IMG/VR virus record: IMGVR_UViG_3300029267_003762
Location: 28,247-92,246 of that record
Reading direction: 5' to 3' (one strand)
Length of the DNA: 64,000 nucleotides
DNA from: a virus
Position 1 is the stretch's first letter; each line of letters starts with the position of its first letter. Positions 7,248 through 64,000 of this stretch are shown in pieces. A program made the position numbers and the translations under genes. The notes beneath the pieces were generated by a model. It was not told the origin of the DNA, ran no database searches, and saw only the letters and a list, made by a program, of their open reading frames with translations.

Positions 7248-8927
7248 ATGGAGTCGCTAGGAAAAAGGGCGCTGGATGTGGCCTTCAAGGAGCTTGGGGT
7301 GGCGGAGGATCCGCCGCGCTCGAACACTGGGCCGCGGATCCGTGAGTACCTCGAGCCGTGTGTGCGGGGCGACCGCAACGTGAAGCTCGGGCTCAAGGCC
7401 TCGAACTGGTGCTTCACAGGAGACACCGAGATTCTGACGGAAGAGGGGTGGATGCGTTTGGATGACGTGTCCGAAGACGTTCAGGTAGCGCAGGTACATC
7501 CAAGGTCGATGCGCATCTCCCTCACCAGGACGGTCGCGGTCATCCACAAGGCGCACAAGGGCGCTCTGGCGGTCATGAGTCGGCGATCTCTGCGTTTGGT
7601 GTCCGACCCGGAGCATAGGTACTTCGGCAAGTGGTGGGTGAGCGCTAGGAGTGGAAGAAAGGACGTACCGGAGGTGGAGCTGCGCCCCGTAGCAGACCTG
7701 ACGGGTGCAGCAACGAAGCTGGTCGTTCCGCCCAGCCGCGGTCACTTCGAGTACGAAAGTGGGTGGAGCAGGCGTGACTTGAAGCTGTTGGGAGCGTTCT
7801 TGGCAGACGGCAGCATCGTCAACGGGAAGTTGCAGTTTCAGGTCAGCAGGGCGGACAAGATAGCGATGTTGCACGAGCTGGAACCTGACCGAGTCTGGGA
7901 AGCTCCCATGCCGTACGGGCCTAGGTCGAAGGAGGCTCTGACCAGTTTCTTCTTCGAGATGCCGTCGGAGTTTGCGGAGGCGTTCGATAAGTACAAAGTG
8001 CTGTCCCCCCGATTCATGTGGAACCTTCACAGGGAGCAGGCTGCTCTCGTGCTCGACACATGGGCGTCCTATGACGGCAGTGCTCGAGGCGGGTCCATTC
8101 GGCTGTCGCAGGCGTCCAAGGACAGGATCGACACGGCCCAGATGCTGGCCGTACTGGCTGGGTATTCCGGTCAGACACAGAAGCCGAAACAGCTCGGTGA
8201 GTTCGGTTCGACCATGCACTTTCTGACGTACGTCAAAGGCCCGCGTAACACGGAGATCCTCGACAAGAACGTCCGCTTGACCGAAGAGCAAGAAGTAGAC
8301 TTGTACTGCGTTCAGGTCCCCAGCGGGCTGATCATCGTCCGCCCTTCTGGGTACGGTAGGGCGCTGGTGGTAGGCAACTGCATGGCGTTCTCGAGCTGGT
8401 GCATGACCGAGGCCCTCGAGGACGGCGAGGTCCCCCCTCACGGCTACCGTGCGGGGGTCGTCGAGGCTGTGGCTGACGTGCGCAGCCCGCACGCCAAGTT
8501 CTCGGGCGTTTGGCACCCGGTCGAGACGGTAAGAAAGAAGCTCTGGACGCCGTTCGAAGGAGACCTGGCCATCTGGGACCGGTCGACCACAGATCCGAAC
8601 ACGTCTTGGTGGCGGCACGTGAACCGGGTCGTGAAGTACGACGCCGGTGTCGGCGAGTTCGACACCATCGGCGGCAACGAACGGGACCAGGTGCGGGTCG
8701 CCGCACACCACGTGTCCGAGATCAAGCTGCTCGGCTTCATCGCCTACCCGCAGCCCGAGGACAAGCCCGAGCCCAAGCAGATCGACGCGCTGACGCACGC
8801 CAACCTGCTCGGACTCGTGGCCCGTACCATCGACGGAATGTTGCGCGACTCGCACACCGAGATGATGGAGTCGCACCACATGGACGACGACGACGACGAC
8901 GACTACGACGACGACTACGACGACTAG
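7248..8927 (+). CDS. CHAP-domain peptidoglycan amidase (endolysin-like) interrupted by an intein
   Basis: Extein reads ELGVAEDPPRSNTGPRIREY..NW|CMAFSSWC..WRHVNRVV..TIGGNERDQV (CHAP Cys/His motifs); acidic C-terminal tail. Confidence 0.85.
   Translation: MESLGKRALDVAFKELGVAEDPPRSNTGPRIREYLEPCVRGDRNVKLGLKASNWCFTGDTEILTEEGWMRLDDVSEDVQVAQVHPRSMRISLTRTVAVIHKAHKGALAVMSRRSLRLVSDPEHRYFGKWWVSARSGRKDVPEVELRPVADLTGAATKLVVPPSRGHFEYESGWSRRDLKLLGAFLADGSIVNGKLQFQVSRADKIAMLHELEPDRVWEAPMPYGPRSKEALTSFFFEMPSEFAEAFDKYKVLSPRFMWNLHREQAALVLDTWASYDGSARGGSIRLSQASKDRIDTAQMLAVLAGYSGQTQKPKQLGEFGSTMHFLTYVKGPRNTEILDKNVRLTEEQEVDLYCVQVPSGLIIVRPSGYGRALVVGNCMAFSSWCMTEALEDGEVPPHGYRAGVVEAVADVRSPHAKFSGVWHPVETVRKKLWTPFEGDLAIWDRSTTDPNTSWWRHVNRVVKYDAGVGEFDTIGGNERDQVRVAAHHVSEIKLLGFIAYPQPEDKPEPKQIDALTHANLLGLVARTIDGMLRDSHTEMMESHHMDDDDDDDYDDDYDD
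7410..8378 (+). mobile_element. Intein with LAGLIDADG-type homing endonuclease
   Basis: Begins CFTGDTEILTEEGW, contains LLGAFLADG, ends LYCVQVPSG..VVGN followed by Cys. Confidence 0.9.
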
Positions 8928-8929
8928 CC

Positions 8930-10189
8930 CTACCTCTGAGTCGCCCTCTTGATGATGTCGCTGAACTTCCTGACGTCCGGCGACTCCATCTTCGGATCCC
9001 TGATCACTGCGGTCAGGGCGTTCTCGAGCTCGGTGATGCGCTTCGAGCGCGCCTCGTTGCTCTCCCGAAGTTGCCTGATCGTCTCGATGTTGTTGGACAG
9101 CTCTGTTGCGTTGGCGTTGAGGGACTCGTGGAGCTTCTCGATGCGCCCGTCCATCTCTGTGACGGTCGTCTGCAACTTCGTGTTCTTCTCCTTGAGCTTG
9201 CCGATACCCCTGCGGATCCTTGAGAACGCCTGCTCAACGGACTCTTCCTCGTCGGGAAGCGCGAGCTGGGACTGCACTCTCATGAGGTGGGCCTCGAGCT
9301 CGTTGCGGATGACGTCGACGACCGGCGTGAGCCTCAAGAGGCCCGTGCCGGTACCGCCAAGCGAGTGGTACACCTCCTCCAGTGTGCCGGCGATGCGCTC
9401 GTAGGCTTCCACGGCGCTCTCATCCGGCCTGCTCTTCCCGATGGCGTCGCCAATGGACACCAGTTGCGACATGAGCTTGCCGCTTGCCACCTTCTGGTTC
9501 TCGAGGTCTTGCACGACTCGTGCAGCGGCCTTGTCGACGAACTCGTCCCTGTGGGCCCCCAGGGTTGCGCGCGTGCGCCTCAGCACGTCGTGGTTCCATG
9601 AGTCGGTGTTCGGGTCCACCTCGATTGGCCTCTTCGCGAGCTCGTTGGCCGCCTCCATCGGGCCCTTGAGGTACTTCTCCAGCAGCCTGAAGTTGCCGTC
9701 GAGGTGGTCGCATGGAACGATGCCGCAGTGCTTGACCAGCGTTCGGACCTCGTAGTTGAGCGCTTCGATGTGCCCGTTGAGCAGTTGCGACAGTCCGGCG
9801 GCGCTGGTGACTGGGAGCTCTTGAGGCTCCTTGCCGACGTGCTTGAGCCCGTTGGTGATCGAGATGAGCGAGTCCTCCAGGGCCCCAACGAGCTTCTCAT
9901 GCGTCTCCCTGCCCGACATCTTCTTGAGCTCCTCGATCTTCTCGACGAGCTGCCTCTCGTTGGAGTTCGGTTGGAGCCCAGCTGCGACGTTGACACGCTG
10001 GATGGCGGCGGAGAGCGTCGTGTGCATGGCTTGGTAGAGCCGAACGTGGTCTTTGAGGAGGTCCACTTGCTCAACGAGCTCATCGACCCGTGCGAGCTTT
10101 GCCCGCACGTACGCCCCGGTGACATCGACTTCGATGAAGTCCTTGTCGCCTTTGAGGGCCTCGAAGCCCTCTTTCGTTTTCTCTGTCAC
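8930..10189 (-). CDS. Coiled-coil hypothetical protein
   Basis: Heptad-rich 419 aa; GTG start with GGAGG; directly downstream of the Cas7-like gene. Confidence 0.75.
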   Translation of the reverse strand: MTEKTKEGFEALKGDKDFIEVDVTGAYVRAKLARVDELVEQVDLLKDHVRLYQAMHTTLSAAIQRVNVAAGLQPNSNERQLVEKIEELKKMSGRETHEKLVGALEDSLISITNGLKHVGKEPQELPVTSAAGLSQLLNGHIEALNYEVRTLVKHCGIVPCDHLDGNFRLLEKYLKGPMEAANELAKRPIEVDPNTDSWNHDVLRRTRATLGAHRDEFVDKAAARVVQDLENQKVASGKLMSQLVSIGDAIGKSRPDESAVEAYERIAGTLEEVYHSLGGTGTGLLRLTPVVDVIRNELEAHLMRVQSQLALPDEEESVEQAFSRIRRGIGKLKEKNTKLQTTVTEMDGRIEKLHESLNANATELSNNIETIRQLRESNEARSKRITELENALTAVIRDPKMESPDVRKFSDIIKRATQR

Positions 10190-10200
10190 TGCTTCCTCCT

Positions 10201-11094
10201 TCAGCTGACGCGGCCAGCAGTCTGCGTGTCATTCGAGGTGATGACGTCCTTGCGGGCGACCTTGCGTGCGGCCCTGCCCCTCGCAGGTGCCTTCGTAGTC
10301 TTCTTGGCCGCCGTCTTCTTCTCCTTGGGTTCTTTGCCGGCGACGCCGTCCTGCACCTTCTCGACGTTGACGAGGCGGAACTTGCCCTCGCCGATGGAGC
10401 GGTCGGCCCACAGCCCATTCTCCTGGGCCAGGGTGAGGATGCGGACGAGCTCCTCCTCCTTGATGTGGCGCGTGTCGGCGGGGTGCGTGGGGGCGACCCA
10501 CCAGTCGAACGTGCAGTACACGTCTGTGAGGTAGTCGGTCTTCTTGATCGCGGTCCTCGGGCCCTGCATGGTCATGACCTGGATCGCCCGCTCCTCGCAG
10601 CCGTCCGGCTCGGTCACGTACATGCGGCCGGCAGTGGTGATGCGGTAGAACAGAAGCTGGTTGCCGTGGTCCAGCCCCTCGGGCTTGATCTCGGTGCCGT
10701 GCTTGAGGTGTTCGGTCTTCGGGCGGTCCTGCAGGATCCTGTGCACCGAGACCGTCTCTTTGATGCACGCCTTCGGGCAGCGGGCGAACATGTACATCTG
10801 GCCCTCGGAGTTCCTGGGAAAGCCGATCCAGGAGCGCTCCTCCTTCTCCTGCCCCTCGATGGCCTCGAGGTTCTCTTCGTCCTGCTGCTCGGTGAGCTCG
10901 TCACGCTCTTTCACCTTCGTCTTGAGCTCGGCGTAGCTCTTCTTCGGCTTCTTCGCCTGCTGGTCGCCGGCGATGACGAGGGGGTTCAGGGGGTGGCCGC
11001 CGATGATGCGGTTCGGCGCCTCGACGACGATCGTGATGCGGTAGACGTCGTAGAACTGCTTGGGGCTGGTGTCGTACTTGTCGAGTAGGTTCAT
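10201..11094 (-). CDS. Solo Cas7/RAMP-like RNA-binding protein
   Basis: RAMP layout: beta1 YRITIVVEAP..IIGG; GQMYMFARCPKACIKE (equivalent to the 'P.IPGSSLKG.LR' helix); thumb EERAIQVMTMQGPRTAIKKTDY; Gly-rich loop GLWADRSIGEGKF; basic C-terminal tail. SD AGGAG. Confidence 0.75.
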   Translation of the reverse strand: MNLLDKYDTSPKQFYDVYRITIVVEAPNRIIGGHPLNPLVIAGDQQAKKPKKSYAELKTKVKERDELTEQQDEENLEAIEGQEKEERSWIGFPRNSEGQMYMFARCPKACIKETVSVHRILQDRPKTEHLKHGTEIKPEGLDHGNQLLFYRITTAGRMYVTEPDGCEERAIQVMTMQGPRTAIKKTDYLTDVYCTFDWWVAPTHPADTRHIKEEELVRILTLAQENGLWADRSIGEGKFRLVNVEKVQDGVAGKEPKEKKTAAKKTTKAPARGRAARKVARKDVITSNDTQTAGRVS

Positions 11095-11140
11095 CTTCTA
11101 TCTCCTTCAGGTAGTGATTGGTTCAAGGAAGAAGTAAGGA

Positions 11141-12203
11141 AGCTGCTTGGACAGGCTAGGCCTGTCGCCAGGGTTGCCGTGACCAGGCGCGTCGATCGGC
11201 AAGGGGAGGTGTGGCAAGTCACTGGCACCGGTTCAGGCGGGTAGGTCGATTGGTTTGGTCAGAAGTGGTGAGGCATGTCGCACGGGTGGGATGGAGCGGG
11301 CACGGTTCGTCGGGCGGCAAGGTGAGGTGCGAGAAGGCACGTCGGCGGGCACGAGAAGGTCCGGCGCAGTGCGTCGACCGAGTGGGCATGACTTGGCTGA
11401 TCGATAGGGACGGCCCGACCAGGCTCGTCGGACGAGAAGGAATGGCGCGGTATGTCGTACGGCATGATGTGGGCTTGGCGGGATTGGGGTGAATAGTCGA
11501 CCAGTTCGGATGAATCAGGCACGTCGAAGAGTCCGGTAAGGCATGGCCCGTCGTGTGTCCTGGTCTGCCTTGGCATGTCCTGCGATGGGGCGTGCATCGG
11601 TTCGTCGCAAAGCTGGGCGTGGTTCGGTTCGTCGACCGGAGTGATTCGTTGAGGAACGGATTGTCGATCGTGTCTGGTCGGGACCGGTTTGGGCCGTCGC
11701 ATGAACCTGAACTGGGAAGGCATGTCGACTGGTCCGGCGAGGTAAGGTACGTCGGATGGGCCGGATGAGTGGGGCACAGCTCGTCGCGTGAGTCGTAAGA
11801 CACGAACTGGTGAGGCATGGGTTGTCGAGCGGGCCGGTACGACTTTAGCACGGAACGTCGAATGGCCAAGCAAGGTACGGTTTGTCGCATGGGAAGGCTG
11901 GGAACGGATCGATGGTGGTCAGTCGCGTGGCGTGGTGCGGGTCGGATCGGATGGTTCAGCCCTGGCCAGTCGAAGGATCGGGAGTGGTGGGGCCTGTCGG
12001 CTGGGACGGGTCGGAAGGGTTTGGTGAGTCGCCTGGGCTGGCATGTGCGGGTCCGGAGTGTCAGACGGTTTGGCGTGGTCAGTCCCCTAGTTCGATACGG
12101 AGTGTCGGACGGGTGGACCGGGAGTGGCCCGTCGGATGGACTGGAGAGGAGTGGGCGGGTTCGGAGTGTCGGTAGGGTCGGTGCGCCGCAGCGAGGCATG
12201 TCA
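11141..12203. repeat. Non-coding pentamer array (NNN-GG)n punctuated by GTCG; candidate guide-RNA array
   Basis: 35 GTC(G)-type marks from 11164 to 12200; 29 of 34 intervals equal 5n+2 (22-47 nt); dinucleotide slots are mostly GG, sometimes GA or AG. Confidence 0.9.
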
Positions 12204-12509
12204 AAAGGGCGGCTCCTCGTCACCGTCTACCACAGGCAGGTCCCGGAGGTAGTCATCGAGCTCGAGGGGCCATGGTGGCAATCCGCTACCGCATCGGCCG
12301 CTGCCGTGGCGGTGCGGGAAAGGGTAAGCATCACAGCCGCAGACTCCGTACTTGTCGAACTGCACGGTCCTCATCCACTTGCAGAGAGGGCGGCCCGGTC
12401 GGCACTCCGGCATGTGCACGACCACGGTCCTGTTCACCACGTAGCACCTCCCGCCGCCTGCCTCGAGCTCGCGGGTGGTTCGCGCCCTCTTGTGAACGAG
12501 CTTACTCAT
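12201..12509 (-). CDS. Cys/His-rich small protein
   Basis: CGCDAYPFPHRHGSGRC motif; its stop codon overlaps the last array punctuation. Confidence 0.65.
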   Translation of the reverse strand: MSKLVHKRARTTRELEAGGGRCYVVNRTVVVHMPECRPGRPLCKWMRTVQFDKYGVCGCDAYPFPHRHGSGRCGSGLPPWPLELDDYLRDLPVVDGDEEPPF

Positions 12510-12756
12510 TCTTCGTTGCGAGGTTCATCTTGCTGATTGGGATGTTGAGGTACTCACGTACCTTCTCCGATTCCTCGTGCGAAAGGGCCCGCGGAACGCC
12601 CTCGCACAGGTGCTTGCCGATGGCGTAGTGCCTGTCGACGTCGTTCCTCAACAGCCGTCCGCATCGCGGGCAATAGTACATCGGACGGCTGTCCTTGCGG
12701 GCAGCGTTGTACGCCATCCGAAGGTGATTCCTCGGATACACGGACAGGTTGAGCAT
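12502..12756 (-). CDS. Small Zn-finger protein
   Basis: CPRC..H..HLC; SD AGGAGG. Confidence 0.7.
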   Translation of the reverse strand: MLNLSVYPRNHLRMAYNAARKDSRPMYYCPRCGRLLRNDVDRHYAIGKHLCEGVPRALSHEESEKVREYLNIPISKMNLATKNE

Positions 12757-12788
12757 GGTTCCTCCTTTCGTGAGGTAGGGGCTGAGAG

Positions 12789-12806
12789 CGCTGCTCTTAT
12801 GCCCCC
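12789..12806 (-). promoter_or_regulatory. Putative phage promoter motif GGGGGCATAAGAGCAGCG, copy 1
   Basis: Identical 18-mer at 60389-60406; both copies lie about 30 nt upstream of minus-strand operons. Confidence 0.7.
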
Positions 12807-12930
12807 AGTCTTCTTCTTTTTGCGCAGAAACAGAACAGAGGTTGACCGGACGGGCAAGACGACCTACGCTGCGCTCAATCCAACCGTACCGAAGGCCTTC
12901 TCAGGAAGGCTTTTTGCGTAGGAGAGCACC

Positions 12931-13803
12931 ATGTTGAGCAAGTTCGCTGAGATGATCTTCACTCTTCTTCTGGCTTTCGGTGGCGAGAAGTACGCAGGCA
13001 ACAGTCCGTACAGCTTCGAGATCGCTCAGGGCTGTGGGACGAACCAGGGCTCGCCGGCGTGCGCGCTCACGCCTCAATGCGAGGTCAAGGCTTGGAGGTG
13101 TGCGCCGCCGCGCTGGTCTCCGGCCCGGGAGGCTTGGGTCCTTCCTGAGAGCAGCGCGAAGGCCAAGGAGCGGTACCACAAGATCGCCGAGTCGATCGCC
13201 AGGGTGTCGTTCTGGCATGCCAGGTGCCGGGATGAATGGGGAACCGTGAGGGAGGACTGCACGCCCAGCGGCTGGCCCGAGGGGCCCGAAAGCCTGGCGC
13301 GCGTCGCGGCCACAACAGCCTTGTGGGAGAGCGGCCTGCGGGAGGACATCATGTTCGGGCACGCCCCGATGGGCCGCGGCGCCATGGGGGAGACGTGCCT
13401 CGCCCAGATCATGCCCAACCAGATCCGTCAGTTCGCCTCGTGGATACCCCAGGATGAGCTCGACACCTACGACAAGCTGCCGCTCGGCAAGGAGCGGGCC
13501 GAGTGGGACGAGAAGTGGGCGCAGCGGATGCTCGGCGACTCCCCACAAGAACTCGATCGGTGCTTCGACGTCGCGCTGCGCGCACTCGCTCGGGCCCGAG
13601 GGGCCTGCGTCGGTCGACAGGGCGGCGGATGGGCCTACAAGATGTGGGCGATGTACGGCACGGGCAACCGCTGCTCGAGCTTCGGCATCCACGACGACTT
13701 CGCCGCCAAGCGCGCCAGCACCTATCACCGGATGAAGAGCTACAAGCCCTCCCCTGGCGCCGCCCCGCAGACCCCCGTTCCGGAGAAAACCGCTTCAAAC
13801 TAG
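12931..13803 (+). CDS. Secreted lytic transglycosylase/lysozyme-like protein
   Basis: Hydrophobic N-terminus; ALWESGLREDI..GRGAMGETCLAQI resembles the SLT-like ES and GLMQ motifs. Upstream TTGACC-N16-TACGCT. Confidence 0.55.
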   Translation: MLSKFAEMIFTLLLAFGGEKYAGNSPYSFEIAQGCGTNQGSPACALTPQCEVKAWRCAPPRWSPAREAWVLPESSAKAKERYHKIAESIARVSFWHARCRDEWGTVREDCTPSGWPEGPESLARVAATTALWESGLREDIMFGHAPMGRGAMGETCLAQIMPNQIRQFASWIPQDELDTYDKLPLGKERAEWDEKWAQRMLGDSPQELDRCFDVALRALARARGACVGRQGGGWAYKMWAMYGTGNRCSSFGIHDDFAAKRASTYHRMKSYKPSPGAAPQTPVPEKTASN

Positions 13804-13812
13804 GAGTTAGAG

Positions 13813-13833
13813 AAAGGGCGGCCGGGGCCGCCC
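13813..13833 (-). terminator. Putative intrinsic terminator
   Basis: GGGCGGC-CGGG-GCCGCCC hairpin between convergent genes. Confidence 0.45.
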
Positions 13834-13837
13834 GCGC

Positions 13838-14149
13838 TTACCTGTGGCGAGGCCACAGGCAGTCGTAGTCGTTTCTGACTACCTGTTGGCAGGTCTCCGG
13901 CAGATCCTCGAACCGTATCTTCTTGCCCAGATGCCTGTATCTTGGTCTGTCGATCTGCACGTCACTGAACCCGTGCATGCCGATGCCTTGTGGATGGGTT
14001 GGGTATGGTGACATTCCCAAGTACATGAACTGGCCGCCCACACGCTTTCGCGTGAAGACTACCGTGTACCTGTCAGCAGTGGTGCCGCCATTGTCGTAGC
14101 AGCGCACGTATCTCGGGCTCACAGCTCCAATCTCCTCGAGGCTTTTCAT
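13838..14149 (-). CDS. Hypothetical phage protein
   Basis: YDNGGTTADRYTVVF motif; coupled by an ATGA overlap. Confidence 0.75.
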   Translation of the reverse strand: MKSLEEIGAVSPRYVRCYDNGGTTADRYTVVFTRKRVGGQFMYLGMSPYPTHPQGIGMHGFSDVQIDRPRYRHLGKKIRFEDLPETCQQVVRNDYDCLWPRHR

Positions 14150-14679
14150 GTGGTCAGCTCCTCATAGAGCTTGTAGATTCGATGGATGTTGCGGGCGATC
14201 ATGGGTCTTCCGCGTTTGAACTGCAGTCTTGAGGTCTTGTACCCGAGCTTCTCTGCGAGGAAAGCCTCGGTGTAACCCTCGTTTTTGAGCAGTTCGAGCT
14301 TTCGCAGGGCCCTGGTGGAGCCCATGATGGTCACTTCGTTGGGAACGTCCGCAGTCACGGCGAGAATGGCCTCTTCGGTCTTCTTGCGAATCTGCTTCTT
14401 CGTGCCGTTGCGGATGCGTCGAAGTGTGGTGTCACCGACTCCGGAGATGTCCTGGATGGTCCGTCGGCCGATGCCCTTCTTCGAGAGTTTGAGCATGTGC
14501 GCCCGGGCCTTGTCGGCCGGCACGAGGCCATTCCAGTCCCCGCCACGGTTGTACTTCTGCCTCATGCGCGCGTAGGAACGATTGGCCTCGCTGCACGGCT
14601 CACAGCGACACCCCGTGACGTAGCGCGCCCGCGTCCCGTGCTCAAACCGCTCGGGACCGGGCATGTCCTTGGGCCTCAT
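14146..14679 (-). CDS. HTH DNA-binding protein with an N-terminal Zn motif
   Basis: HGTRARY..GCRCEPC followed by the HTH GIGRRTIQDISGVGDTTLRRI. Confidence 0.75.
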   Translation of the reverse strand: MRPKDMPGPERFEHGTRARYVTGCRCEPCSEANRSYARMRQKYNRGGDWNGLVPADKARAHMLKLSKKGIGRRTIQDISGVGDTTLRRIRNGTKKQIRKKTEEAILAVTADVPNEVTIMGSTRALRKLELLKNEGYTEAFLAEKLGYKTSRLQFKRGRPMIARNIHRIYKLYEELTT

Positions 14680-15410
14680 ACCTCGTAGACGTCGCTGTGG
14701 ACCGGGCGGCGAAGATGCCTATAGACCACGATGACTCGGTCCAGATGTACCTCAATGCGGTCGACCGGAGCCACGACGGAGTCGATGATGGACAACACGA
14801 GCTCGTAGTGTTTGGAATTGGGGGGCAGAGGTTCGTTGTTCAGCATCCACGAGTTCGGGTTTTGGAGGGTCGTGGCGACGTCCCCAGGCACGATGACCTG
14901 GAAGCCCTTGATGGAGGCCACGTAGGAGACCACTCGAGGGTCGCGGGTGACTGGCTGGAACTCGTTCTGGTGGTCGAGCACCTCCTGGATCTGCGGCGGT
15001 TGCCAGTTCGGCGGCTTGAGCCACTTGCCATCCTCGCGCTTGGTGGCGCCGGGGCCGAACTTGGCCATGTTGGCCCGATGGACCTCGGCGGCGATGCGCG
15101 GGCCGTGGATGCCGAACGTCTGCCTGGCGCCTTCTACGACGTAGTCGATGTCCGCCAGCGCGTCGGCCACGAGGCAGACGTCCCATTCGTCGTCGGGCGC
15201 CTCTTCGAGCAGCTCCTCGACGGAGTCGCGCACGTTCGTCACGAGGTGCGGCGCCCCGCCCATGTAGCAGGCGTCCAGCAGCTCCGTGCACTCTTCGCAG
15301 ATGAGGCGCAGGCGCAGGATGATCTCGTCCTTGGTAGGCTTGCGGGGGCTGTCGTAGCAGGGCTGATCAGCCTTCTTCATGAACTCGCGTACTTGCTGCC
15401 TGATGTTCAC
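14676..15410 (-). CDS. MazG-like (PRA-PH family) nucleoside triphosphate pyrophosphohydrolase
   Basis: VREF, RLRLICEECTEL, DALADIDYVVEG, EVHRANMAK, REDGKWLKP; GTG start at 15410. Confidence 0.85.
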   Translation of the reverse strand: MNIRQQVREFMKKADQPCYDSPRKPTKDEIILRLRLICEECTELLDACYMGGAPHLVTNVRDSVEELLEEAPDDEWDVCLVADALADIDYVVEGARQTFGIHGPRIAAEVHRANMAKFGPGATKREDGKWLKPPNWQPPQIQEVLDHQNEFQPVTRDPRVVSYVASIKGFQVIVPGDVATTLQNPNSWMLNNEPLPPNSKHYELVLSIIDSVVAPVDRIEVHLDRVIVVYRHLRRPVHSDVYEV

Positions 15411-27615: not shown

Positions 27616-28497
27616 ATGAACGAGTTCCTCGCACAGTACTTCGGTACGAACGCCACCCCGGACATGATCGAAGAGCAGACGAAGCAGGCCGAGGCCGAGA
27701 CCTTCGTCCAGCTCGCCAAGGAGGCCGGGGTGCCCCTGCACCAGATGACCGACGCGCAGATCGCCGAGCTCTACGAGCACGTCATGGGCAAGACCGCCTC
27801 TGACGACGGCGATGAGGACGACGAAGAGGAGAAGAAGCGCAAGGCGGCCGAGGAGTACGCGTCCAAGAAGGAATCCCACGTCAAGTTCGCCGAGGCCACC
27901 GAGATGGGTCAGATCATGGCCCACAGCTTCTGGAACGAGCTCGGTGAGATCGAGAAAGAAGCCGGGCGCGGCAGCGAGTTCCTCAACAAGGCCAAGGGCA
28001 AGGCCATGCGCATTGGCGGAACTGCGGCAGGCTACGGGGCTGAGGCTCTTTCTGCCCTTACCGGAAGCACCGGACGCAGCAAGGCCAAGCTCCTCAAGGA
28101 GCTCAAGGGTCGCACTGGCCACGTTCCGGGCGGCGCGAAGATCGAGAAGAACCTCGCCAAGGAGATCGCGGCCCACAAGGCCCGTTCTCTCAAGGCTCGC
28201 CTTGCCGCTGGAGGCGGCGCTGCGGCCCTCGGCGGCACGGGTTACGCTCTCGCCGGTCGCGAGAAGGATTCGGCGGCGGCGCTCAACGAGCTCGCTCTCG
28301 AGCTTGCCGTCGAGAAGTGCGCGTCCGCCGGCTGGGATGCTGATGAGGCGTCGACGCGCATCGTTTCCGCCATCAACCTCGATCTCGTCGACGAGGACAA
28401 CACCAAGATCGCGTATGCGAACGACGTCGACGGCGCCGTCGAGATTCGTTCGTTGGAGCTCATCGAAGCGGCCGGCTACCCGGTCACGTGGGAGTAA
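27616..28497 (+). CDS. Scaffold-like or internal head protein
   Basis: Acidic and helical; K-x-A motifs; SD AAGGAG. Confidence 0.65.
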   Translation: MNEFLAQYFGTNATPDMIEEQTKQAEAETFVQLAKEAGVPLHQMTDAQIAELYEHVMGKTASDDGDEDDEEEKKRKAAEEYASKKESHVKFAEATEMGQIMAHSFWNELGEIEKEAGRGSEFLNKAKGKAMRIGGTAAGYGAEALSALTGSTGRSKAKLLKELKGRTGHVPGGAKIEKNLAKEIAAHKARSLKARLAAGGGAAALGGTGYALAGREKDSAAALNELALELAVEKCASAGWDADEASTRIVSAINLDLVDEDNTKIAYANDVDGAVEIRSLELIEAAGYPVTWE

Positions 28498-28520
28498 GGG
28501 CGAGCCCTTAGGAACACCCA

Positions 28521-30062
28521 ATGGCAGCGACAGGAGTAGGCATGGTCAACAACCCGGAAGGCACCGCTCAGGTGGCGCCGACCGCGACCATGTCTCCCCT
28601 GCCTGCAGTTCAAGTACCGACCACACCTGCTCCCAAGCTGACGGCTGATCTCAGCAAGAAGCCGGGGAGCGCGCAGGTCGGGGCTCGAACCAACTACTCC
28701 CGAGTGAACACCGGTGCCCCGATGGCCTCTGATGCAGGAGAGAGTTCTCAGAAGTCACTTCAGCCGAAGATGGCCGGGGCGTTTTTCAAGTCGCAAAGTG
28801 AGGTTCCTATGACACACGCAGCTGCACGTCCGACGCTTCAGCAGATGTTGAAGCACGCGATGGCAGGGGCAACGTCTGCGATCGACTCTGGTCAGATCGC
28901 TGCCGCGGCTCGTTCGCAGCTCGAGGTCGGAGGGAACCGGAAGGAGGCGAGCGCGCCTCCGGAGGGCCAGCCGATCTCACGAGAGTACGCGCACAAGCTC
29001 GCCTCTGCTGTCGACTACTACGCCGAAGTGACGTTCGGTAAGGTAGCGCAGGACGCACCCACGTCGCCGGGTCACGGACCTGGCGCACTCGACGTCACCG
29101 AGTCCATGGATGGCCCGCCCATCAGTGAGGACTCTGGGCAGGCGACGTCGGGCAACCAACCGCCCATGAACCCAGGCACCGGCAAGGTGGCTCCCAATGC
29201 CGTCGATGCCGCTACCGCCCTGGACAACGATGCAGACCACCGGCCTGGCGCCGACGCGGAGAAGTCCTGGTCTCCTGACGGGGACAGCACTCGCTTCTCG
29301 AAGGTCTCGCAGATCGAGCGCATTCGGAAACTCGCCGCTGGGCGCGTCGTCGATGAGCAGAGGCAGCAGGCCATGGGACGCATCATGGCCACCGCCGAGG
29401 AAAAGCTCGATCGAGACCGCGCACGGGCGGGAGAGAAGTCCTACGTCCCCTTTGAGGGCAAGAAGGGTCGCAACGCTCCGAAGCCCTCCGCTGCTCCGAA
29501 GCCCTCCGCTCCGAAGCCGTCGGCCGCCCCCAAGGTCAAGCCGTCGGATGTGAGGAAGGGCGTGGGCATCGTCGAGCGTATCCGCAACATGAGCGGACGC
29601 AACAAGGCGCTTGCTGGGGCCGCTCTCGGACTCGGTACTCTTGGGGCCGGGTACGGGGCGTACCGGGCTCTTTCGGGCAAAGAGAAGGCCGCGTCTTCGC
29701 AGATCGGTCTCATCCGCAAGCTCGCGGAAGACGCGATCAACCCTGCGCACATCACGGCTGCGCACAACGCTCCCGAGCCCCAGACGCTCGAGGCGTCCGA
29801 CCCCGGGCCGTCCGGGGAGAACAAGGGGATGCTTCCGACCACTCCTGAGGGCGTCGCAGACGCCACCAAGCGGTCGGTCAAGGCCCCCTTCGTGAAGAAG
29901 GACATGCCGGACTACGTCGACGAGCCTGCTTTCTCGGCGCCTCACGACAAGGTCTTGCAGAACGCCTTCGCCAAGACGGACGAGTCCGGTGCGAAGATCT
30001 CTTCGATCGACGCGACCTCGGCCGCCCGCGCGCTCTTCAACCGACTGGCAGAGGAGGCCTGA
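28521..30062 (+). CDS. Internal head protein (low complexity, PKPSAA repeats)
   Basis: In the head cluster; K-x-A motifs. Confidence 0.65.
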   Translation: MAATGVGMVNNPEGTAQVAPTATMSPLPAVQVPTTPAPKLTADLSKKPGSAQVGARTNYSRVNTGAPMASDAGESSQKSLQPKMAGAFFKSQSEVPMTHAAARPTLQQMLKHAMAGATSAIDSGQIAAAARSQLEVGGNRKEASAPPEGQPISREYAHKLASAVDYYAEVTFGKVAQDAPTSPGHGPGALDVTESMDGPPISEDSGQATSGNQPPMNPGTGKVAPNAVDAATALDNDADHRPGADAEKSWSPDGDSTRFSKVSQIERIRKLAAGRVVDEQRQQAMGRIMATAEEKLDRDRARAGEKSYVPFEGKKGRNAPKPSAAPKPSAPKPSAAPKVKPSDVRKGVGIVERIRNMSGRNKALAGAALGLGTLGAGYGAYRALSGKEKAASSQIGLIRKLAEDAINPAHITAAHNAPEPQTLEASDPGPSGENKGMLPTTPEGVADATKRSVKAPFVKKDMPDYVDEPAFSAPHDKVLQNAFAKTDESGAKISSIDATSAARALFNRLAEEA

Positions 30063-60388: not shown

Positions 60389-60406
60389 CGCTGCTCTTAT
60401 GCCCCC
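60389..60406 (-). promoter_or_regulatory. Putative phage promoter motif, copy 2
   Basis: Identical to 12789-12806. Confidence 0.7.
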
Positions 60407-60451
60407 GTTTCATAGCTTTTTTGACTACTTGGCGTGTGCTACTCTCGGCGC

Positions 60452-63400
60452 ATGTGGTCCCATGAGATCAGTGCGCTGAACGGGCAGTTCCAGCAGCAAG
60501 CCATGATGCAGACTGCGATGGCCCAGCAGATGACCATGGGGCGGATGCCCGGCGCGCAAGCGGACATGCTTACGGGCATGGCCGTCAACCACGCGCAGGC
60601 AATCGGGTCACCGATTCTGAGCACGGCGGCGGGGCTCACGGGGCTCGATAGCCCCATGTCCGGCGCCATCACCGGTGGCATGTTCGGCATGGCCCTTGGC
60701 CCGGTGGGGGCGGTTGCTGGGGCGGGTATCGGGGCAGGGATGGGGGCCATCGGCAGCGTGGGCATGGGTGCGGCGCAGTTCGCCGCCGGCAACTTCATGC
60801 AGGGCATGCAGCAGCAGCAGGGCCTGAACATGATGATGCGTCAGCAGTACGGCGGCATGGGGATGACCCGCAGTCAGATGGGCCAGACGGGGGCAGCCAT
60901 CAGAGAGATGACCCACGATGTCATGCCAGGCGGCCAGATGCTCGGTTATGAGCAGCTCCAGGGCCTCGCCAGCAACATGGGCCGGATGGGGTTCACGCAA
61001 ACCCTGACGGATGTGCGGCAGTTCAGTCAGAAGTTCAGGGAGATGATCGACACGCTCAAGACCGTCTCCCAGGACCTCGGCACGTCCCTCGAGAACGCTC
61101 AGCAGATGGTCGTGAGCATGAGGGGCTCGGGCCTGTTCCAGAAGGCCGACCAGCTGCGCATGAGCGCGCAGGTTCGCCAGAACGCTTTGAGCGGCGTCTC
61201 CATACAGGAGACCACGCAGATGGCCAACATCGGTTCGCAGATCTCTCGCAGCATCGGCGGGCTCGGCCGGCAGGGTGCTGTCGCCGGCGCCCGTACCATC
61301 GGACAGGTTGGTGCCGCGCAGCGGGCAGGCGTCATCAGCGAAGAGGACATCTACAACGTCACCGGCCTGACAGGTTCGGAGGGGCGCACCGCGTACGCGC
61401 AGCAGATGCTCTCGATGGACGCCCGGTTCCTGCGTGGAGGGCTCGGGCGCCGGCTGATGGCTTCCATGGCCTCGGAGAACGCCGGCGAGATCGATGAGGA
61501 AGCCTTCGACAGCTTCATGTCCGGCGGCTTCTCCACCGGCGAGACCATGGGGCAAGCTCGCCCACGCGCTGCTCGTCTCGGCCGCGCCTCGTTCATTCGT
61601 AACGAGGGGCGCCTCCGCGGTTCTCTGCTCGAGAAGGGCGGAGGCGGGCTGGCCCTGCGCGCCTTCCAGGGGTGGCTGGGTAGCCGGGGTATGGATGTCT
61701 ACGGCATGGACGACCGGGCCAAGATCTTCGCCCAGCGCCGCCTGGGACTCGGTCGGGAAGAGATCGACGTCATGACCCAGCAGCTCCGGCGTATGGGCGA
61801 CGTCAACCAGTTCATGGAGTCACAGCGCGAGCAGGACTCCTTCCAGCGCGAGCAGATCTCGGAGCGTAACCGCACAGGCGTCGAGGGCATGAAGCGGTCC
61901 TTCGACCAGTTCCGGCACCGAGTGCAGAGCTCCATCCAAGAGGTCGGCGCCAAGACGTACAACGACATGTCCGGGTGGGTAGAGGACCAGCTCAATCGGA
62001 TGTTCGGTACGTACAGTGAGGAGATCGACGCGCAGATGAACGAGGCTTTCGCGTCGTTCCGTTCGAGCAAAGGGCAGAGCTTCTACGCCAACCAGCGCAT
62101 CAACCAGCTCCAGACGGCCGCCGGCGGCTTCGGTCGCGGTATCAACGCCCCCACGCAGTTCAGTGCTGGTTTTGGAGGAGGGCCCACCGACGTCGACGCC
62201 TACAGGGCCATGGCGCAGGGCGGTTCCATGATGGGCCGGGTGCAGGGCTGGCTCAACGAGAACACGGCGCTTGGGATGCCGAACGCCGAGGAGCGAACGG
62301 GCTTCAGGTTCAAGTACGACCCCAGTAAGGGCGGGTCGGAGAGTGAGCAGTTCAGGTCGTTCAAGAGGCGAGTAACTGCCGCGAATCAGGGCGCCAGAGC
62401 TGTGATCGACAAGTCCGTTACCGCCTCCGCAGCGGCGGCGAGGGATCAGATCTGGAGCGTGGGCTTCCTGGACAAGCTCTCCAAGACGCAGGGCGAGGAC
62501 AAGCTCGCGTTGATCGAGTCGCAGATCGCAAACGTCCCGGGGATGGGGGACGTCAACAAGGAGATTGACCGCCTCAAGAGTGAGGGCAAGCGTCTGGACG
62601 CGGAGATCGAGAACACGAGGGACCCCGCCAAGAGGGCGGCACTTGAAGAGAAAAAGAACGGTCTTCTGGCCAGAAGGATGAACATCAGCCAGTCGGTGGC
62701 GGCTGGGGCTACAGGCGTCACCTCTCTTGGGTTCAGCGGCAAGTCACCGTTCGCCGCCATGGGTATGGCGGGGATGTCCCGGCGTGACCGAATGAGCGCC
62801 TACGGTGAGGCCATGATGTATGGCGACGACGCCATGAAGCGTGACGAGCAGATCGCCGGAGAAGGCGTGGATGCCCTGGCGCTGGGTGGGGCCGGCATGC
62901 TCCTTGAGCTGGGTGACAGGCTTGGCGTGTTCAGGGAGGGCAAGGACAAGGCGTTTTCGGCAGGTGGATGGAGGAAGGCTTTCGAGAGCACGCCAATGGG
63001 GGCGGCGTCTCCGGTCTTCAGCAAGGGCTTGGACTGGTTGAAGGGGGCCACTGCTGACGTACGCTCTAGGCTGCGTGGGGGCATGGGTCGCGGGGCCATG
63101 GAGAGCGAGCTCGCAGGTCTCATTACGGGCACGGAGGGCCGTGGGATGATGGCGACGGCCCTTACTGGTGGTGAGAGGCAGAGCCAGGCCCTATTGGCCA
63201 GAGTTCGGCGTGAGATGGCAGGGGAGGCAGGCAAGGACTCTGCGCGGAAGAAGATGCTCGGCATCATCGGAGCTGCCGCCGAGATACGAAAGATCAATGA
63301 CCCCACCAGCCGGTTGAGTAAGAAGGAGAAGCAGGAGCGACTGCAGAAGGTGGCCGAGGACTACGGCTTCGAAAGTGCCGACGAGATGCAGAACGTTGTG

Positions 63401-64000
63401 AACGCGGCCAGGGACGCGAACACCATGGAGTCCCGGCGCGAGATGGCCAAGGGCGCTCAGAAGTACGGCAAGATCGCTGAAAAGAAGATGGAGGAGTTTG
63501 CCGATCTTGGTGTGGTAGGCGCGGACGGCAAGCTGAGCAAGGAGTTCTTGAAGAGCCTGTCTCCGGAAGCCGCGCAGCTTGCTGGGGCCATGGTGGGCGC
63601 AGAGAGGGCCATGGCAGGAGGAGCGTTCGCTGACACCACGGACGAGGGCATGGCCATTGCTTCTGGAGCCTTCTCCGGCGCCGAGGAGCAGTACGGTCGG
63701 ATGGACCGGTTCCTTGCCAACGCATCTTCTGCTCAGCTCAAGGAGATGGAGGAGTCGTTCCGAGGCGCCGAGGGCGGTGCCTTTGGTTTGCGGGCGGTAC
63801 GGGGCGAGATGACGGGTCGCCGGGCGGCCATGCGGGCGACGAGAGGGGGCCGCGCCGCCGGGATGGACGCGGCTAAGATCTTCGGGGGCAACAAGAAAAC
63901 CCAGAGAGAGGTTCAGAATCTTGTTGCGTCCGGAAGGGTTGAGGAAGCCGTAGAGGTTCTATCCGCAGAAAGCGGAGCCGACTTCAGTACGGAAGAGCGC
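60452..64000 (+). CDS. Tape-measure-like protein (3' truncated)
   Basis: ATG 60452; Gly/Ala/Met/Gln-rich helical ORF that appears open to the window end (both ends read in the same frame; absent from the ORF track, consistent with no stop). Confidence 0.7.
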   Translation, partial: MWSHEISALNGQFQQQAMMQTAMAQQMTMGRMPGAQADMLTGMAVNHAQAIGSPILSTAAGLTGLDSPMSGAITGGMFGMALGPVGAVAGAGIGAGMGAIGSVGMGAAQFAAGNFMQGMQQQQGLNMMMRQQYGGMGMTRSQMGQTGAAIREMTHDVMPGGQMLGYEQLQGLASNMGRMGFTQTLTDVRQFSQKFREMIDTLKTVSQDLGTSLENAQQMVVSMRGSGLFQKADQLRMSAQVRQNALSGVSIQETTQMANIGSQISRSIGGLGRQGAVAGARTIGQVGAAQRAGVISEEDIYNVTGLTGSEGRTAYAQQMLSMDARFLRGGLGRRLMASMASENAGEIDEEAFDSFMSGGFSTGETMGQARPRAARLGRASFIRNEGRLRGSLLEKGGGGLALRAFQGWLGSRGMDVYGMDDRAKIFAQRRLGLGREEIDVMTQQLRRMGDVNQFMESQREQDSFQREQISERNRTGVEGMKRSFDQFRHRVQSSIQEVGAKTYNDMSGWVEDQLNRMFGTYSEEIDAQMNEAFASFRSSKGQSFYANQRINQLQTAAGGFGRGINAPTQFSAGFGGGPTDVDAYRAMAQGGSMMGRVQGWLNENTALGMPNAEERTGFRFKYDPSKGGSESEQFRSFKRRVTAANQGARAVIDKSVTASAAAARDQIWSVGFLDKLSKTQGEDKLALIESQIANVPGMGDVNKEIDRLKSEGKRLDAEIENTRDPAKRAALEEKKNGLLARRMNISQSVAAGATGVTSLGFSGKSPFAAMGMAGMSRRDRMSAYGEAMMYGDDAMKRDEQIAGEGVDALALGGAGMLLELGDRLGVFREGKDKAFSAGGWRKAFESTPMGAASPVFSKGLDWLKGATADVRSRLRGGMGRGAMESELAGLITGTEGRGMMATALTGGERQSQALLARVRREMAGEAGKDSARKKMLGIIGAAAEIRKINDPTSRLSKKEKQERLQKVAEDYGFESADEMQNVVNAARDANTMESRREMAKGAQKYGKIAEKKMEEFADLGVVGADGKLSKEFLKSLSPEAAQLAGAMVGAERAMAGGAFADTTDEGMAIASGAFSGAEEQYGRMDRFLANASSAQLKEMEESFRGAEGGAFGLRAVRGEMTGRRAAMRATRGGRAAGMDAAKIFGGNKKTQREVQNLVASGRVEEAVEVLSAESGADFSTEER

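What the first reader, a model, noticed from the sequence alone, without database searches (positions are those of the whole stretch)
11141..12203. Two-level grammar of the array: GTCG punctuation every 5n+2 nt
Seen, counted by hand: GTC(G)-type marks start at 11164, 11191, 11218, 11245, 11277, 11309, 11341, 11373, 11400 (ATCG), 11427, 11454, 11496, 11523, 11550, 11577, 11604, 11631, 11663, 11696, 11724, 11751, 11783, 11824, 11857, 11884, 11922, 11969, 11996, 12028, 12060, 12082, 12104, 12131, 12168 and 12200. Intervals are 27 nt x15, 32 x9, 22 x2 and 37, 42, 47 once each; five are off by one (28, 33, 33, 38, 41). Unit = GTCG-(NNN-GG)k-NNN with k = 3-8, for example GTCG act GG tcc GG cga GG taa GG tac GTCG. 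The triplets differ between units, so this is not a slippage microsatellite: register is conserved while content diversifies. Inference: GTCG/CGAC acts as a processing site, cap or register-reset that separates individual guides of 4-9 variable triplets.
Basis: seen in the sequence. Interest (0 to 1): 0.88.

Follow-up and report, generated by a model that had tools for sequence, protein, structure and literature searches.

The report
Punctuated VIPR guide array in phage
The five-base repeat tract with GTCG marks is real and is very probably the guide-RNA array of a phage VIPR system, a CRISPR-like RNA-guided DNA-silencing system first described in 2026 preprints, so it is a new example of a known kind, not a new kind.

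Summary
All 35 marks and all 34 intervals are as listed. Lag-5, lag-27 and lag-32 periodicity and the 5n+2 spacing exceed every one of 1000 dinucleotide shuffles (z 8-15).

The tract fills the gap between two minus-strand genes of a tailed phage. The gene next to it (10201-11094) folds as a single-domain Cas7-like RAMP. Its family aligns with the family of the tested SUSP1 Vipr protein (hhalign 94%, E 1.3e-7).

About 40 of 50 distant relatives of this gene carry a five-base-periodic array beside it, always in one orientation relative to the gene. Those arrays have marks with the core CGA[C/G] and unit lengths quantised in fives (5n+2 or 5n+3).

So this is a VIPR locus (bioRxiv 10.64898/2026.04.26.720920) of the little-studied 'NNNGG' kind. 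Its units are short and tail-less, most like the preprint's untested 'staggered' arrays.

A near-identical phage differs mainly by gain, loss or swap of whole units and pentamers. That fits units acting as separate guides.

Not resolved: which strand is the RNA (co-orientation favours the C-rich strand), whether the mark is cut, and the targets (none found).

This scan has already met VIPR loci in at least 17 other genomes.

The parts
11164..12203 (-). Array of 34 units. On the + strand: GTCG-(NNNGG)k-NNN, k = 3-8. On the - strand: CGAC-(NNNCC)k-NNN. Candidate VIPR guide-RNA (vrRNA) array. The strand given is the more likely transcribed one (same as vipr); this is not proven.
   Evidence: grammar and statistics; same kind of array beside homologous genes; unit-wise turnover.
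10201..11094 (-). vipr-like gene: 297-aa single-domain Cas7-like RAMP with a thumb hairpin (about residues 165-189, conserved tip VMTxQGPR), a glycine-rich loop (GLWADRSIGEGKF) and a disordered Lys/Ala-rich C-terminal tail.
   Evidence: AlphaFold2 model pLDDT 80, pTM 0.71. Foldseek top hits are all Cas7/Csm3/Cmr4, E 1e-5. VIA-align Csm3 Z 10.9. hhalign against the SUSP1-type Vipr family 94%, E 1.3e-7. No Pfam or PHROG family.
11095..11163 (-). 69-nt spacer between array and vipr start. It holds the Shine-Dalgarno AAGGAG of vipr and a near-palindrome GGCCTAGCC (11154-11162).
   Evidence: A similar GGCTAGCC lies at the vipr-proximal end of the arrays in one actinobacterial clade (L016, L018, L028, L033, L053-L055).
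12201..12509 (-). 102-aa Cys-rich gene. Its stop codon is the last 'mark' (GTCA at 12200 is TGAC on the - strand), so the array starts directly after it.
12502..12756 (-). 84-aa zinc-ribbon-like gene, first gene of the minus-strand block.
   Evidence: weak Zn_ribbon_9 match, E 0.002, below cut-off.
12789..12806 (-). 18-nt motif GGGGGCATAAGAGCAGCG, repeated at 60389-60406, each about 35-45 nt upstream of a minus-strand start codon. Candidate phage promoter for the block that holds the array.
   Evidence: The consensus sigma-70 scan finds nothing.
8930..10189 (-). 419-aa coiled-coil gene 11 nt downstream of vipr. Candidate accessory (vap-like) gene, not conserved in the related loci examined.

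Best explanation
The tract is the guide-RNA array of a phage-encoded VIPR system. Shown: the adjacent 297-aa protein is a Vipr-type Cas7-like RAMP. From the cryo-EM paper on SUSP1 (not tested here): such a protein polymerises on RNA with one protomer per five-base repeat, clamps the fixed bases and presents the variable ones for gapped pairing with double-stranded DNA of competing phages or satellites, which silences them. Here only two bases per repeat are fixed (GG on the + strand, CC on the gene strand) and three vary. Inferred: each unit between two marks is one short guide of 4-9 variable triplets, mostly 5-6, i.e. 15-18 programmable bases. Inferred: the mark, whose core CGA[C/G] on the gene strand is shared by the whole protein clade, shifts the register by 2 (by 3 in most relatives). 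It would therefore end one protein filament and start the next, either as a cleavage site or as an unprotected gap trimmed by host RNases. The array most likely is transcribed with vipr from the minus strand. I put VIPR class membership at about 0.9 and the unit-as-guide and mark-as-delimiter reading at about 0.55.
For: Grammar real and non-random. The neighbouring gene has a Cas7/Csm3-like fold (Foldseek E 1e-5, prob 1.0; VIA Z 10.9, rmsd 3.4, 157 aligned). Profile-profile match to the SUSP1-type Vipr family is 94%, E 1.3e-7 over 131 columns, with colinear shared motifs (PLNPL, GF..ACIK, VM[ST]..R, G-loop). Phage context: large terminase E 1e-53 and a tail-sheath match. Of about 50 loci with a homologue (24-45% identity), about 40 have a lag-5 array within a few hundred bases, always in one orientation to the gene. 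On the gene strand the fixed pair is CC in about 27 loci, TG in 12, other in 3, and GG in none. Marks share the core CGA[C/G], and units are quantised as 5n+2 or 5n+3, mostly 5-7 triplets in 215 units. A close variant phage (runs X5, X6) differs by net 43 nt (= 5 + 32 + 6), by 38 nt (one whole unit) and by a 169-to-83-nt cassette swap. Published VIPR biology, including NNNGG repeats and 'staggered' arrays of abutting vrRNAs. In SUSP1, vrRNAs lie on the vipr strand.
Against: There is no RNA evidence for any strand, end or processing. Single-sequence comparisons with SUSP1 Vipr are not significant. The published scaffold is G-based. If the RNA here is the gene strand, the scaffold would be CC, which no paper reports; if it is the G-rich strand, it would be antisense inside an operon. 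Units are much shorter than the tested vrRNAs (9-16 repeats) and lack the structured 3' tail that caps the SUSP1 filament. GTCG also occurs in register inside units, so the tetramer alone cannot be the signal. Substitutions between close variants fall mostly on the 'fixed' positions, so single GG pairs are only loosely constrained.
Confidence: 0.6

Rival explanations
1. It is a VIPR array, but the marks are not guide boundaries. The tract is used as one or a few long RNAs, and the +2 insertion is a geometric register reset that lets a long Vipr filament keep its helical phase or breaks it into linked segments. Specificity would then come from several neighbouring units together.
For: The SUSP1 filament has 6 protomers per turn free and 5 when bound to DNA, close to the commonest 5-6 sites per unit. 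A 15-18-base guide is at the low end of the published 18-32 programmable bases. There is no hairpin, ribozyme or Rfam match between units. The tetramer also occurs inside units.
Against: Close variants gain, lose or swap whole units independently. Unit lengths vary freely from 3 to 8 pentamers within one array. The preprint infers individually processed abutting vrRNAs for such arrays.
Confidence: 0.27
2. It is a DNA-level element: an array of protein-binding sites, a replication or packaging signal, or a G-quadruplex/i-motif-forming tract (GG every 5 nt, four or five per unit).
For: Strong strand asymmetry (GC skew 0.31). (GGN3)4 fits a two-tetrad quadruplex motif. Some relatives lie near replication genes (PrimPol in L025, RusA-like in L027).
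Against: The fixed pair differs between clades (CC, TG, GCA) while the link to a RAMP (RNA-binding) protein and the orientation to its gene stay fixed. 29% of in-register pairs are not GG. The homologous family has been shown by others to bind such RNA.
Confidence: 0.03
3. It is protein-coding: the 334-codon minus-strand frame 11219-12223 encodes a Pro/Arg/Thr-rich protein.
For: The frame is open for 327 of 346 codons. Stop trinucleotides are about two-fold rarer than in mononucleotide shuffles (11 against 21).
Against: A period of 5 with +2 shifts is incompatible with a codon register. Stops are depleted in all three frames because of the fixed positions plus ordinary TA avoidance. The variant phage differs by 43, 38 and 86 nt, none a multiple of 3. 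In TG-type relatives the gene strand is full of stops. No Pfam or PHROG match. The frame ends 55 nt before the array does.
Confidence: 0.01
4. It is a decayed pentanucleotide microsatellite without function.
For: Tandem 5-nt register; some degenerate pentamers.
Against: The triplets are near-random while two positions stay 80-91% G. The same architecture with a conserved mark recurs beside homologues at 24-45% identity.
Confidence: 0.01

Closest known systems
VIPR systems (Viral Interference Programmable Repeat), in the forms with NNNGG-type repeats and 'staggered' vrRNA arrays (bioRxiv 10.64898/2026.04.26.720920; non-canonical repeats also in 10.64898/2026.10.21.760802)
   Same: Phage-borne. 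A lone small RAMP gene flanked by long intergenic tracts of five-base repeats with fixed and hypervariable positions. No cas genes and no CRISPR repeats. Abutting short guide units without tails.
   Different: The preprint infers staggered arrays only from sequence. A CGA[C/G] mark and the 5n+2 / 5n+3 quantisation do not appear in the text I could read (the figures are not held). Here the fixed pair on the vipr strand is CC, so either the RNA is antisense to vipr or the scaffold is not G-based.
Type II VIPR of Escherichia phage SUSP1 (KT454805.2; vipr 28474-29061, vrRNAs of 9-16 YNNGG repeats plus pseudoknot tail)
   Same: Homologous protein family (hhalign 94%). One repeat is 5 nt. The array is co-oriented with vipr and lies upstream and/or downstream of it.
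   Different: SUSP1 has GGY fixed and NN variable, about 100-nt vrRNAs each with a leader and a structured 3' tail, and a 195-aa protein. Here GG (or CC) is fixed and NNN variable, units are 22-47 nt with no tail, and the protein is 297 aa with an inserted acidic helical segment and a basic C-terminal tail.
Class 1 CRISPR Cas7 backbone (Csm3/Cmr4; type III crRNA maturation in 6-nt steps)
   Same: Same RAMP fold with thumb and G-loop. RNA length is quantised by the protomer footprint.
   Different: The footprint is 5 rather than 6 nt. The scaffold bases are sequence-specific. There are no direct repeats or spacers, no Cas6/Cas5/Cas10, and no adaptation genes.
TIGR-Tas arrays
   Same: Phage-associated tandem guide arrays that are not CRISPR.
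   Different: TIGR arrays have an 18-nt period and a Nop-domain effector (as cited). Neither is seen here.

Membership tests
VIPR system | Vipr protein: single-RRM RAMP with thumb and glycine-rich loop, homologous to characterised Vipr | tested here: met
   AF2 model. Foldseek and VIA-align top hits are all Cas7-family. hhalign A2 vs A3 (SUSP1-type family) gives 94.1%, E 1.3e-7 over 131 columns. Single-sequence tests are not significant.
VIPR system | Tandem five-base repeats with fixed and hypervariable positions in the intergenic DNA flanking vipr | tested here: met
   The same holds in about 40 of 50 homologous loci.
VIPR system | Canonical GGY/NN repeat (pyrimidine 3' of GG, two variable bases) | tested here: not met
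   The base after GG is a pyrimidine in only 55%, and all three positions between GG pairs are near uniform. This matches the alternative 'NNNGG' class named in the preprint's methods.
VIPR system | Type II vrRNA architecture: 9-16 repeats followed by a conserved structured 3' tail | tested here: not met
   Units have 3-8 pentamers and abut each other with only a 4-nt mark. No Rfam match and no hairpins. This is closer to the 'staggered' arrays.
VIPR system | Encoded by a phage or provirus, without cas genes or a CRISPR array | tested here: met
   Large terminase E 1e-53 and a tail-sheath match in the window. The nine neighbouring ORFs have no Cas family. No direct-repeat array.
VIPR system | vrRNA is expressed and bound by Vipr | not testable with these tools
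   No RNA run holds the stretch.
VIPR system | Variable bases match natural DNA targets under a gapped (skip) rule | tested here: inconclusive
   With skips of 0, 1 or 2 there is no excess of matches over reversed or shuffled controls in the 4.9-Mb assembly or in 358 kb of related loci. Four exact 18-base seeds give zero hits in IMG/VR. The databases are small for an uncultivated host.
VIPR system | Accessory vap gene next to vipr | tested here: inconclusive
   A 419-aa coiled-coil gene follows vipr, but no neighbour is conserved across the loci, and it has no DNA-binding or nuclease family.
CRISPR-Cas (class 1) | CRISPR array of 25-40-nt direct repeats with spacers, plus further cas genes (Cas5, Cas6, large subunit, Cas1/2) | tested here: not met
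   No such repeats. Neighbours lack Cas families. Only the Cas7-like fold is shared.

The most novel reading that the evidence does not exclude
In this large Vipr clade the guide RNA may be the C-rich strand, co-transcribed with vipr. That would be a VIPR variant whose scaffold is CC (UG in a sister clade) instead of the published G-based motifs. Each protomer would read three programmable bases, under a pairing and skip rule not yet known. Many short guides (4-9 protomers) would be delimited by a clade-wide CGA[C/G] mark acting as a new kind of processing or filament-termination signal.
Probability: 0.4. Interest if true: 0.6.

Novelty: new member of a known kind. Interest (0 to 1): 0.35.

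Why it matters
VIPR was described only in 2026, and only the type II form (GGY/NN, long tailed vrRNAs) has been tested. This locus and its roughly 40 relatives document a second architecture in detail: two fixed and three variable bases per protomer, very short guides whose lengths come in steps of five, and a conserved CGA[C/G] mark that shifts the register. That yields concrete, testable questions. How is guide length set without a 3' cap? What cuts or ends at the mark? What is the pairing rule for three-base blocks? Can the scaffold be C-based? The family is large (about 2500 clusters at 50% identity). It reaches cultured hosts (Nonomuraea prophages, Microcystis phage Mae-JY09), where these tests are feasible.

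Tried and rejected
- Tandem Repeats Finder: no rows.
- Megablast of 9000-15000 against GenBank phages: no match.
- Scan of the whole 4.9-Mb assembly for other such arrays: only Pro/Thr-linker coding repeats and a poly-G contig end. The period-5 signal at 62.8 kb lies inside a large Gly/Met-rich ORF, not an array.
- The first viral scan with the single protein found nothing.
- Rfam at E <= 1 on 8000-14000: nothing, so no hammerhead between units.
- Sigma-70 and terminator consensus scan: uninformative.
- No RNA holder listed among public runs, so strand and ends could not be read.
- Target searches came up empty.
- The paper's supplementary tables are not held, and the looked-up homologues carry none of the five seed accessions, so direct listing in the published VIPR set could not be checked.
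- Coding reading rejected.
- My early ideas (TRAP-like RNA ring site, Rho/rut mimic, primase sites, half-helical-turn DNA phasing) were dropped once the RAMP link and the papers were found.
- The GGCTAGCC motif near arrays is clade-specific and palindromic. It gave no strand information.

Full report
**1. Observation.**
The region 11164-12203 reads, on the + strand, as 34 units of GTCG-(NNN-GG)k-NNN. In 132 in-register pentamers, position 4 is G in 91% and position 5 in 80%. The three other positions are close to uniform, with 48 different triplets.

Against 1000 dinucleotide-preserving shuffles:
- G autocorrelation at lags 5, 27 and 32 has z = 9.5, 9.6 and 7.9.
- There are 18 GTCG pairs spaced 5n+2, against 1.1 +/- 1.1 expected (z 15).
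- No shuffle reaches any observed value.

The mark is best written G-TC-G, a GG pair split by two extra bases. This is because GTCG also arises five times in register from the triplet gtc plus GG. The region has the strongest GC skew of the window.

**2. Setting.**
The tract fills the gap between two minus-strand genes. It starts at the stop codon of a 102-aa Cys-rich gene (12201-12509). It ends 69 nt before the start of a 297-aa gene (10201-11094), which is followed after 11 nt by a 419-aa coiled-coil gene.

An 18-nt motif at 12789-12806 recurs at 60389. Each copy lies about 35-45 nt upstream of a minus-strand gene. It may be a phage promoter for the block; the sigma-70 scan is silent.

The window is phage DNA: large terminase E 1e-53 and a tail-sheath match. 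It lies on a 176-kb contig of a 4.9-Mb metagenome-assembled genome. That assembly has no second array of this kind.

**3. The neighbouring protein.**
It has no Pfam or PHROG family. An alignment of 33 homologues gave an AlphaFold2 model with pLDDT 80 and pTM 0.71.
- Foldseek against the PDB returns only Cas7-family RAMPs (type VII Cas7, Csm3, Cmr4), with E from 1e-5 and probability 1.0.
- The Foldseek-independent search gives Csm3 6ae2_B at Z 10.9 (rmsd 3.4, 157 residues), a Cmr subunit at 10.8, type IV Csf2 at 9.8 and Cas7-11 at 9.3.
- The family profile weakly hits the G-loop of Csm4 chains (E 0.012-0.13).
- The family is large: 2508 clusters at 50% identity with E <= 1e-3.

**4. Comparative evidence.**
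I fetched 4 viral, 41 metagenomic and 5 genomic loci, plus 2 from related genomes and a Microcystis phage, all encoding homologues at 24-45% identity. About 40 of the roughly 50 loci have a lag-5-periodic array of 0.2-2 kb within a few hundred bases of the gene, upstream, downstream or both.

Orientation relative to the gene is fixed. On the gene strand the fixed pair is:
- CC in about 27 loci (this window; Nonomuraea prophages; Microcystis phage Mae-JY09);
- TG in 12 loci;
- another motif (for example GCA/NN in L049) in 3 loci;
- GG in none.

All types are punctuated. On the gene strand the mark has the core CGAC (CC type) or CGAG (TG type, usually AAGCCGAG). Spacing is quantised as 5n+2 here and in L026, and as 5n+3 (28, 33, 38, 43) in most relatives. 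Across 215 units, the number of triplets per unit peaks at 5-6. The two-level grammar is therefore a conserved trait of a whole clade, not a quirk of this phage.

**5. What is known.**
A full-text search led to bioRxiv 10.64898/2026.04.26.720920. It describes VIPR systems as follows:
- A phage-borne ancestral RAMP (Vipr) works with vrRNAs of 9-16 YNNGG repeats and a structured 3' tail.
- The variable NN bases pair with double-stranded DNA, skipping every third target base.
- The targets are competing phages and satellites, which are silenced.
- There are seven types. Alternative repeats NNNGG, YNNNG and NNNNG are listed.
- Arrays may be 'staggered', with abutting vrRNAs. This form is inferred from sequence and was not confirmed by RNA-seq.

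The cryo-EM companion shows one protomer per repeat, G-loop and thumb residues clamping GGY, and 6 protomers per turn free against 5 when bound to DNA. A later preprint finds 21 clusters of non-canonical five-base repeats next to Vipr-like folds.

I read the SUSP1 locus itself (KT454805.2). Its TNNGG vrRNAs lie on the vipr strand, on both sides of the vipr-vap pair.

Sequence comparisons with SUSP1 Vipr:
- Single-sequence comparisons with our family are not significant.
- A profile of 34 SUSP1-type Viprs matches our family profile at 94.1% probability, E 1.3e-7, over 131 columns running from helix 1 through the thumb to the G-loop.
- By eye, four motifs are colinear: PLNPL, GF..ACIK, VM[ST]..R and the G-loop.

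I therefore file the locus as a VIPR system of the NNNGG / short-unit kind.

**6. Do units behave as guides?**
Contigs from two runs of another study (X5, X6) carry a close variant of this array. The differences, read from the joint tables, are:
- 54 nt replaced by 11, a net loss of 43 = one pentamer (5) + one 32-nt unit + 6 nt in a degenerate mark;
- 55 nt replaced by 17, a net loss of 38 = the length of the 38-nt unit at 11884, with the neighbouring 27-nt unit carrying other triplets;
- 169 nt replaced by 83 other letters.

None of these net changes is a multiple of three. This modular turnover resembles spacer turnover and supports units as separate functional modules.

Point substitutions do not spare the scaffold. 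Of 16 listed in regular units, 10 hit the fixed pair (often toggling G and non-G), 5 hit triplets, and 1 restores ATCG to GTCG. Only about half of the rows were shown.

**7. Which strand?** This is unresolved.

For the C-rich gene strand:
- The orientation to vipr is invariant over about 20 independent loci.
- Upstream arrays abut the vipr start with no room for a divergent promoter (L010, L013, L032).
- Arrays are sandwiched between co-directional genes (this window, L025, L027).
- The mark CGA[C/G] is shared on the gene strand by the CC and TG types.
- SUSP1 vrRNAs are sense to vipr.

For the G-rich strand:
- Every published scaffold is G-containing.
- The preprint lists 'NNNGG'.

I estimate 60:40 for the gene strand. 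No RNA run was available.

**8. Targets.**
Triplet patterns with skips of 0, 1 or 2 gave no excess over controls in the assembly or in the fetched loci. Four 18-base seeds from the two longest well-formed units have no exact match in IMG/VR. This does not test the hypothesis well, because the host is uncultivated.

**9. Rivals.**
A coding reading is excluded for these reasons:
- The 5-nt period with +2 shifts does not fit a codon register.
- Stop depletion occurs in all frames and is explained by the fixed positions plus TA avoidance.
- The variant's indels break the frame.

A DNA-level element or quadruplex does not explain the changing fixed pair together with the constant link to an RNA-binding RAMP.

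The serious rival is the same VIPR array used as long RNA, with the mark acting as a geometric reset.

**10. Verdict.**
The kind of system has been published since 2026, and this scan has met it in at least 17 other genomes. What this locus adds is a precise description of the punctuated, quantised short-unit architecture, its conserved CGA[C/G] mark, and the open possibility of a C-based scaffold.

Noticed in passing
window 12789-12806 and 60389-60406 (minus strand): Identical 18-nt motif GGGGGCATAAGAGCAGCG about 35-45 nt upstream of two minus-strand start codons, 47.6 kb apart. Candidate phage-specific promoter.
   Followed up: partly
L027, L030, L031, L037, L039, L042 and others (downstream of the homologous gene): Sister clade with NNNTG pentamers on the gene strand and the mark (A)AGCCGAG, spaced 5n+3. 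L039 has about 40 units in 1.5 kb. In L022 and L045 the third variable base is mostly G (GTG/NN).
   Followed up: partly
L049:2100-3000 (genome G076, same order as the window's host): A third array type next to a more distant homologue: GCA-type pentamers (for example GCAAC, GCATG) on the gene strand.
   Followed up: no
L010:5931-7990 and 9881-11070: One soil-metagenome locus carries two arrays, 2.1 kb and 1.2 kb, on either side of the gene, with an 8-nt mark GTCACGAC. It is the largest example seen here.
   Followed up: no
L016, L018, L028, L033, L053-L055, about 80-100 nt after the vipr stop: A GC-rich hairpin right after vipr, then a conserved leader ending in the palindrome GGCTAGCC just before the first unit. 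This may mark a separate transcription unit for the array in the actinobacterial clade. The window has GGCCTAGCC at 11154-11162.
   Followed up: partly
L053, L054, L055 (Nonomuraea purpurea, N. guangzhouensis, N. wenchangensis) and L046 (Microcystis phage Mae-JY09, PP395641.1:37713-38976): Cultured organisms and an isolated phage carry the same CC-type module, annotated only as hypothetical proteins. They are usable for experiments.
   Followed up: partly
window 60434-64000 (+): Very large Gly/Met/Ala-rich ORF (over 1189 aa, runs off the window) with high GC skew, probably a tape-measure-like protein. It gave a spurious period-5 signal.
   Followed up: no
L016-L018, L028, L036 and L020, L025, L034, L040 (directly upstream of vipr): Two small conserved ORF families (about 147 aa and about 115 aa) sit immediately upstream of vipr in two subclades. 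They are candidate accessory (vap-like) genes and are absent from the window.
   Followed up: no
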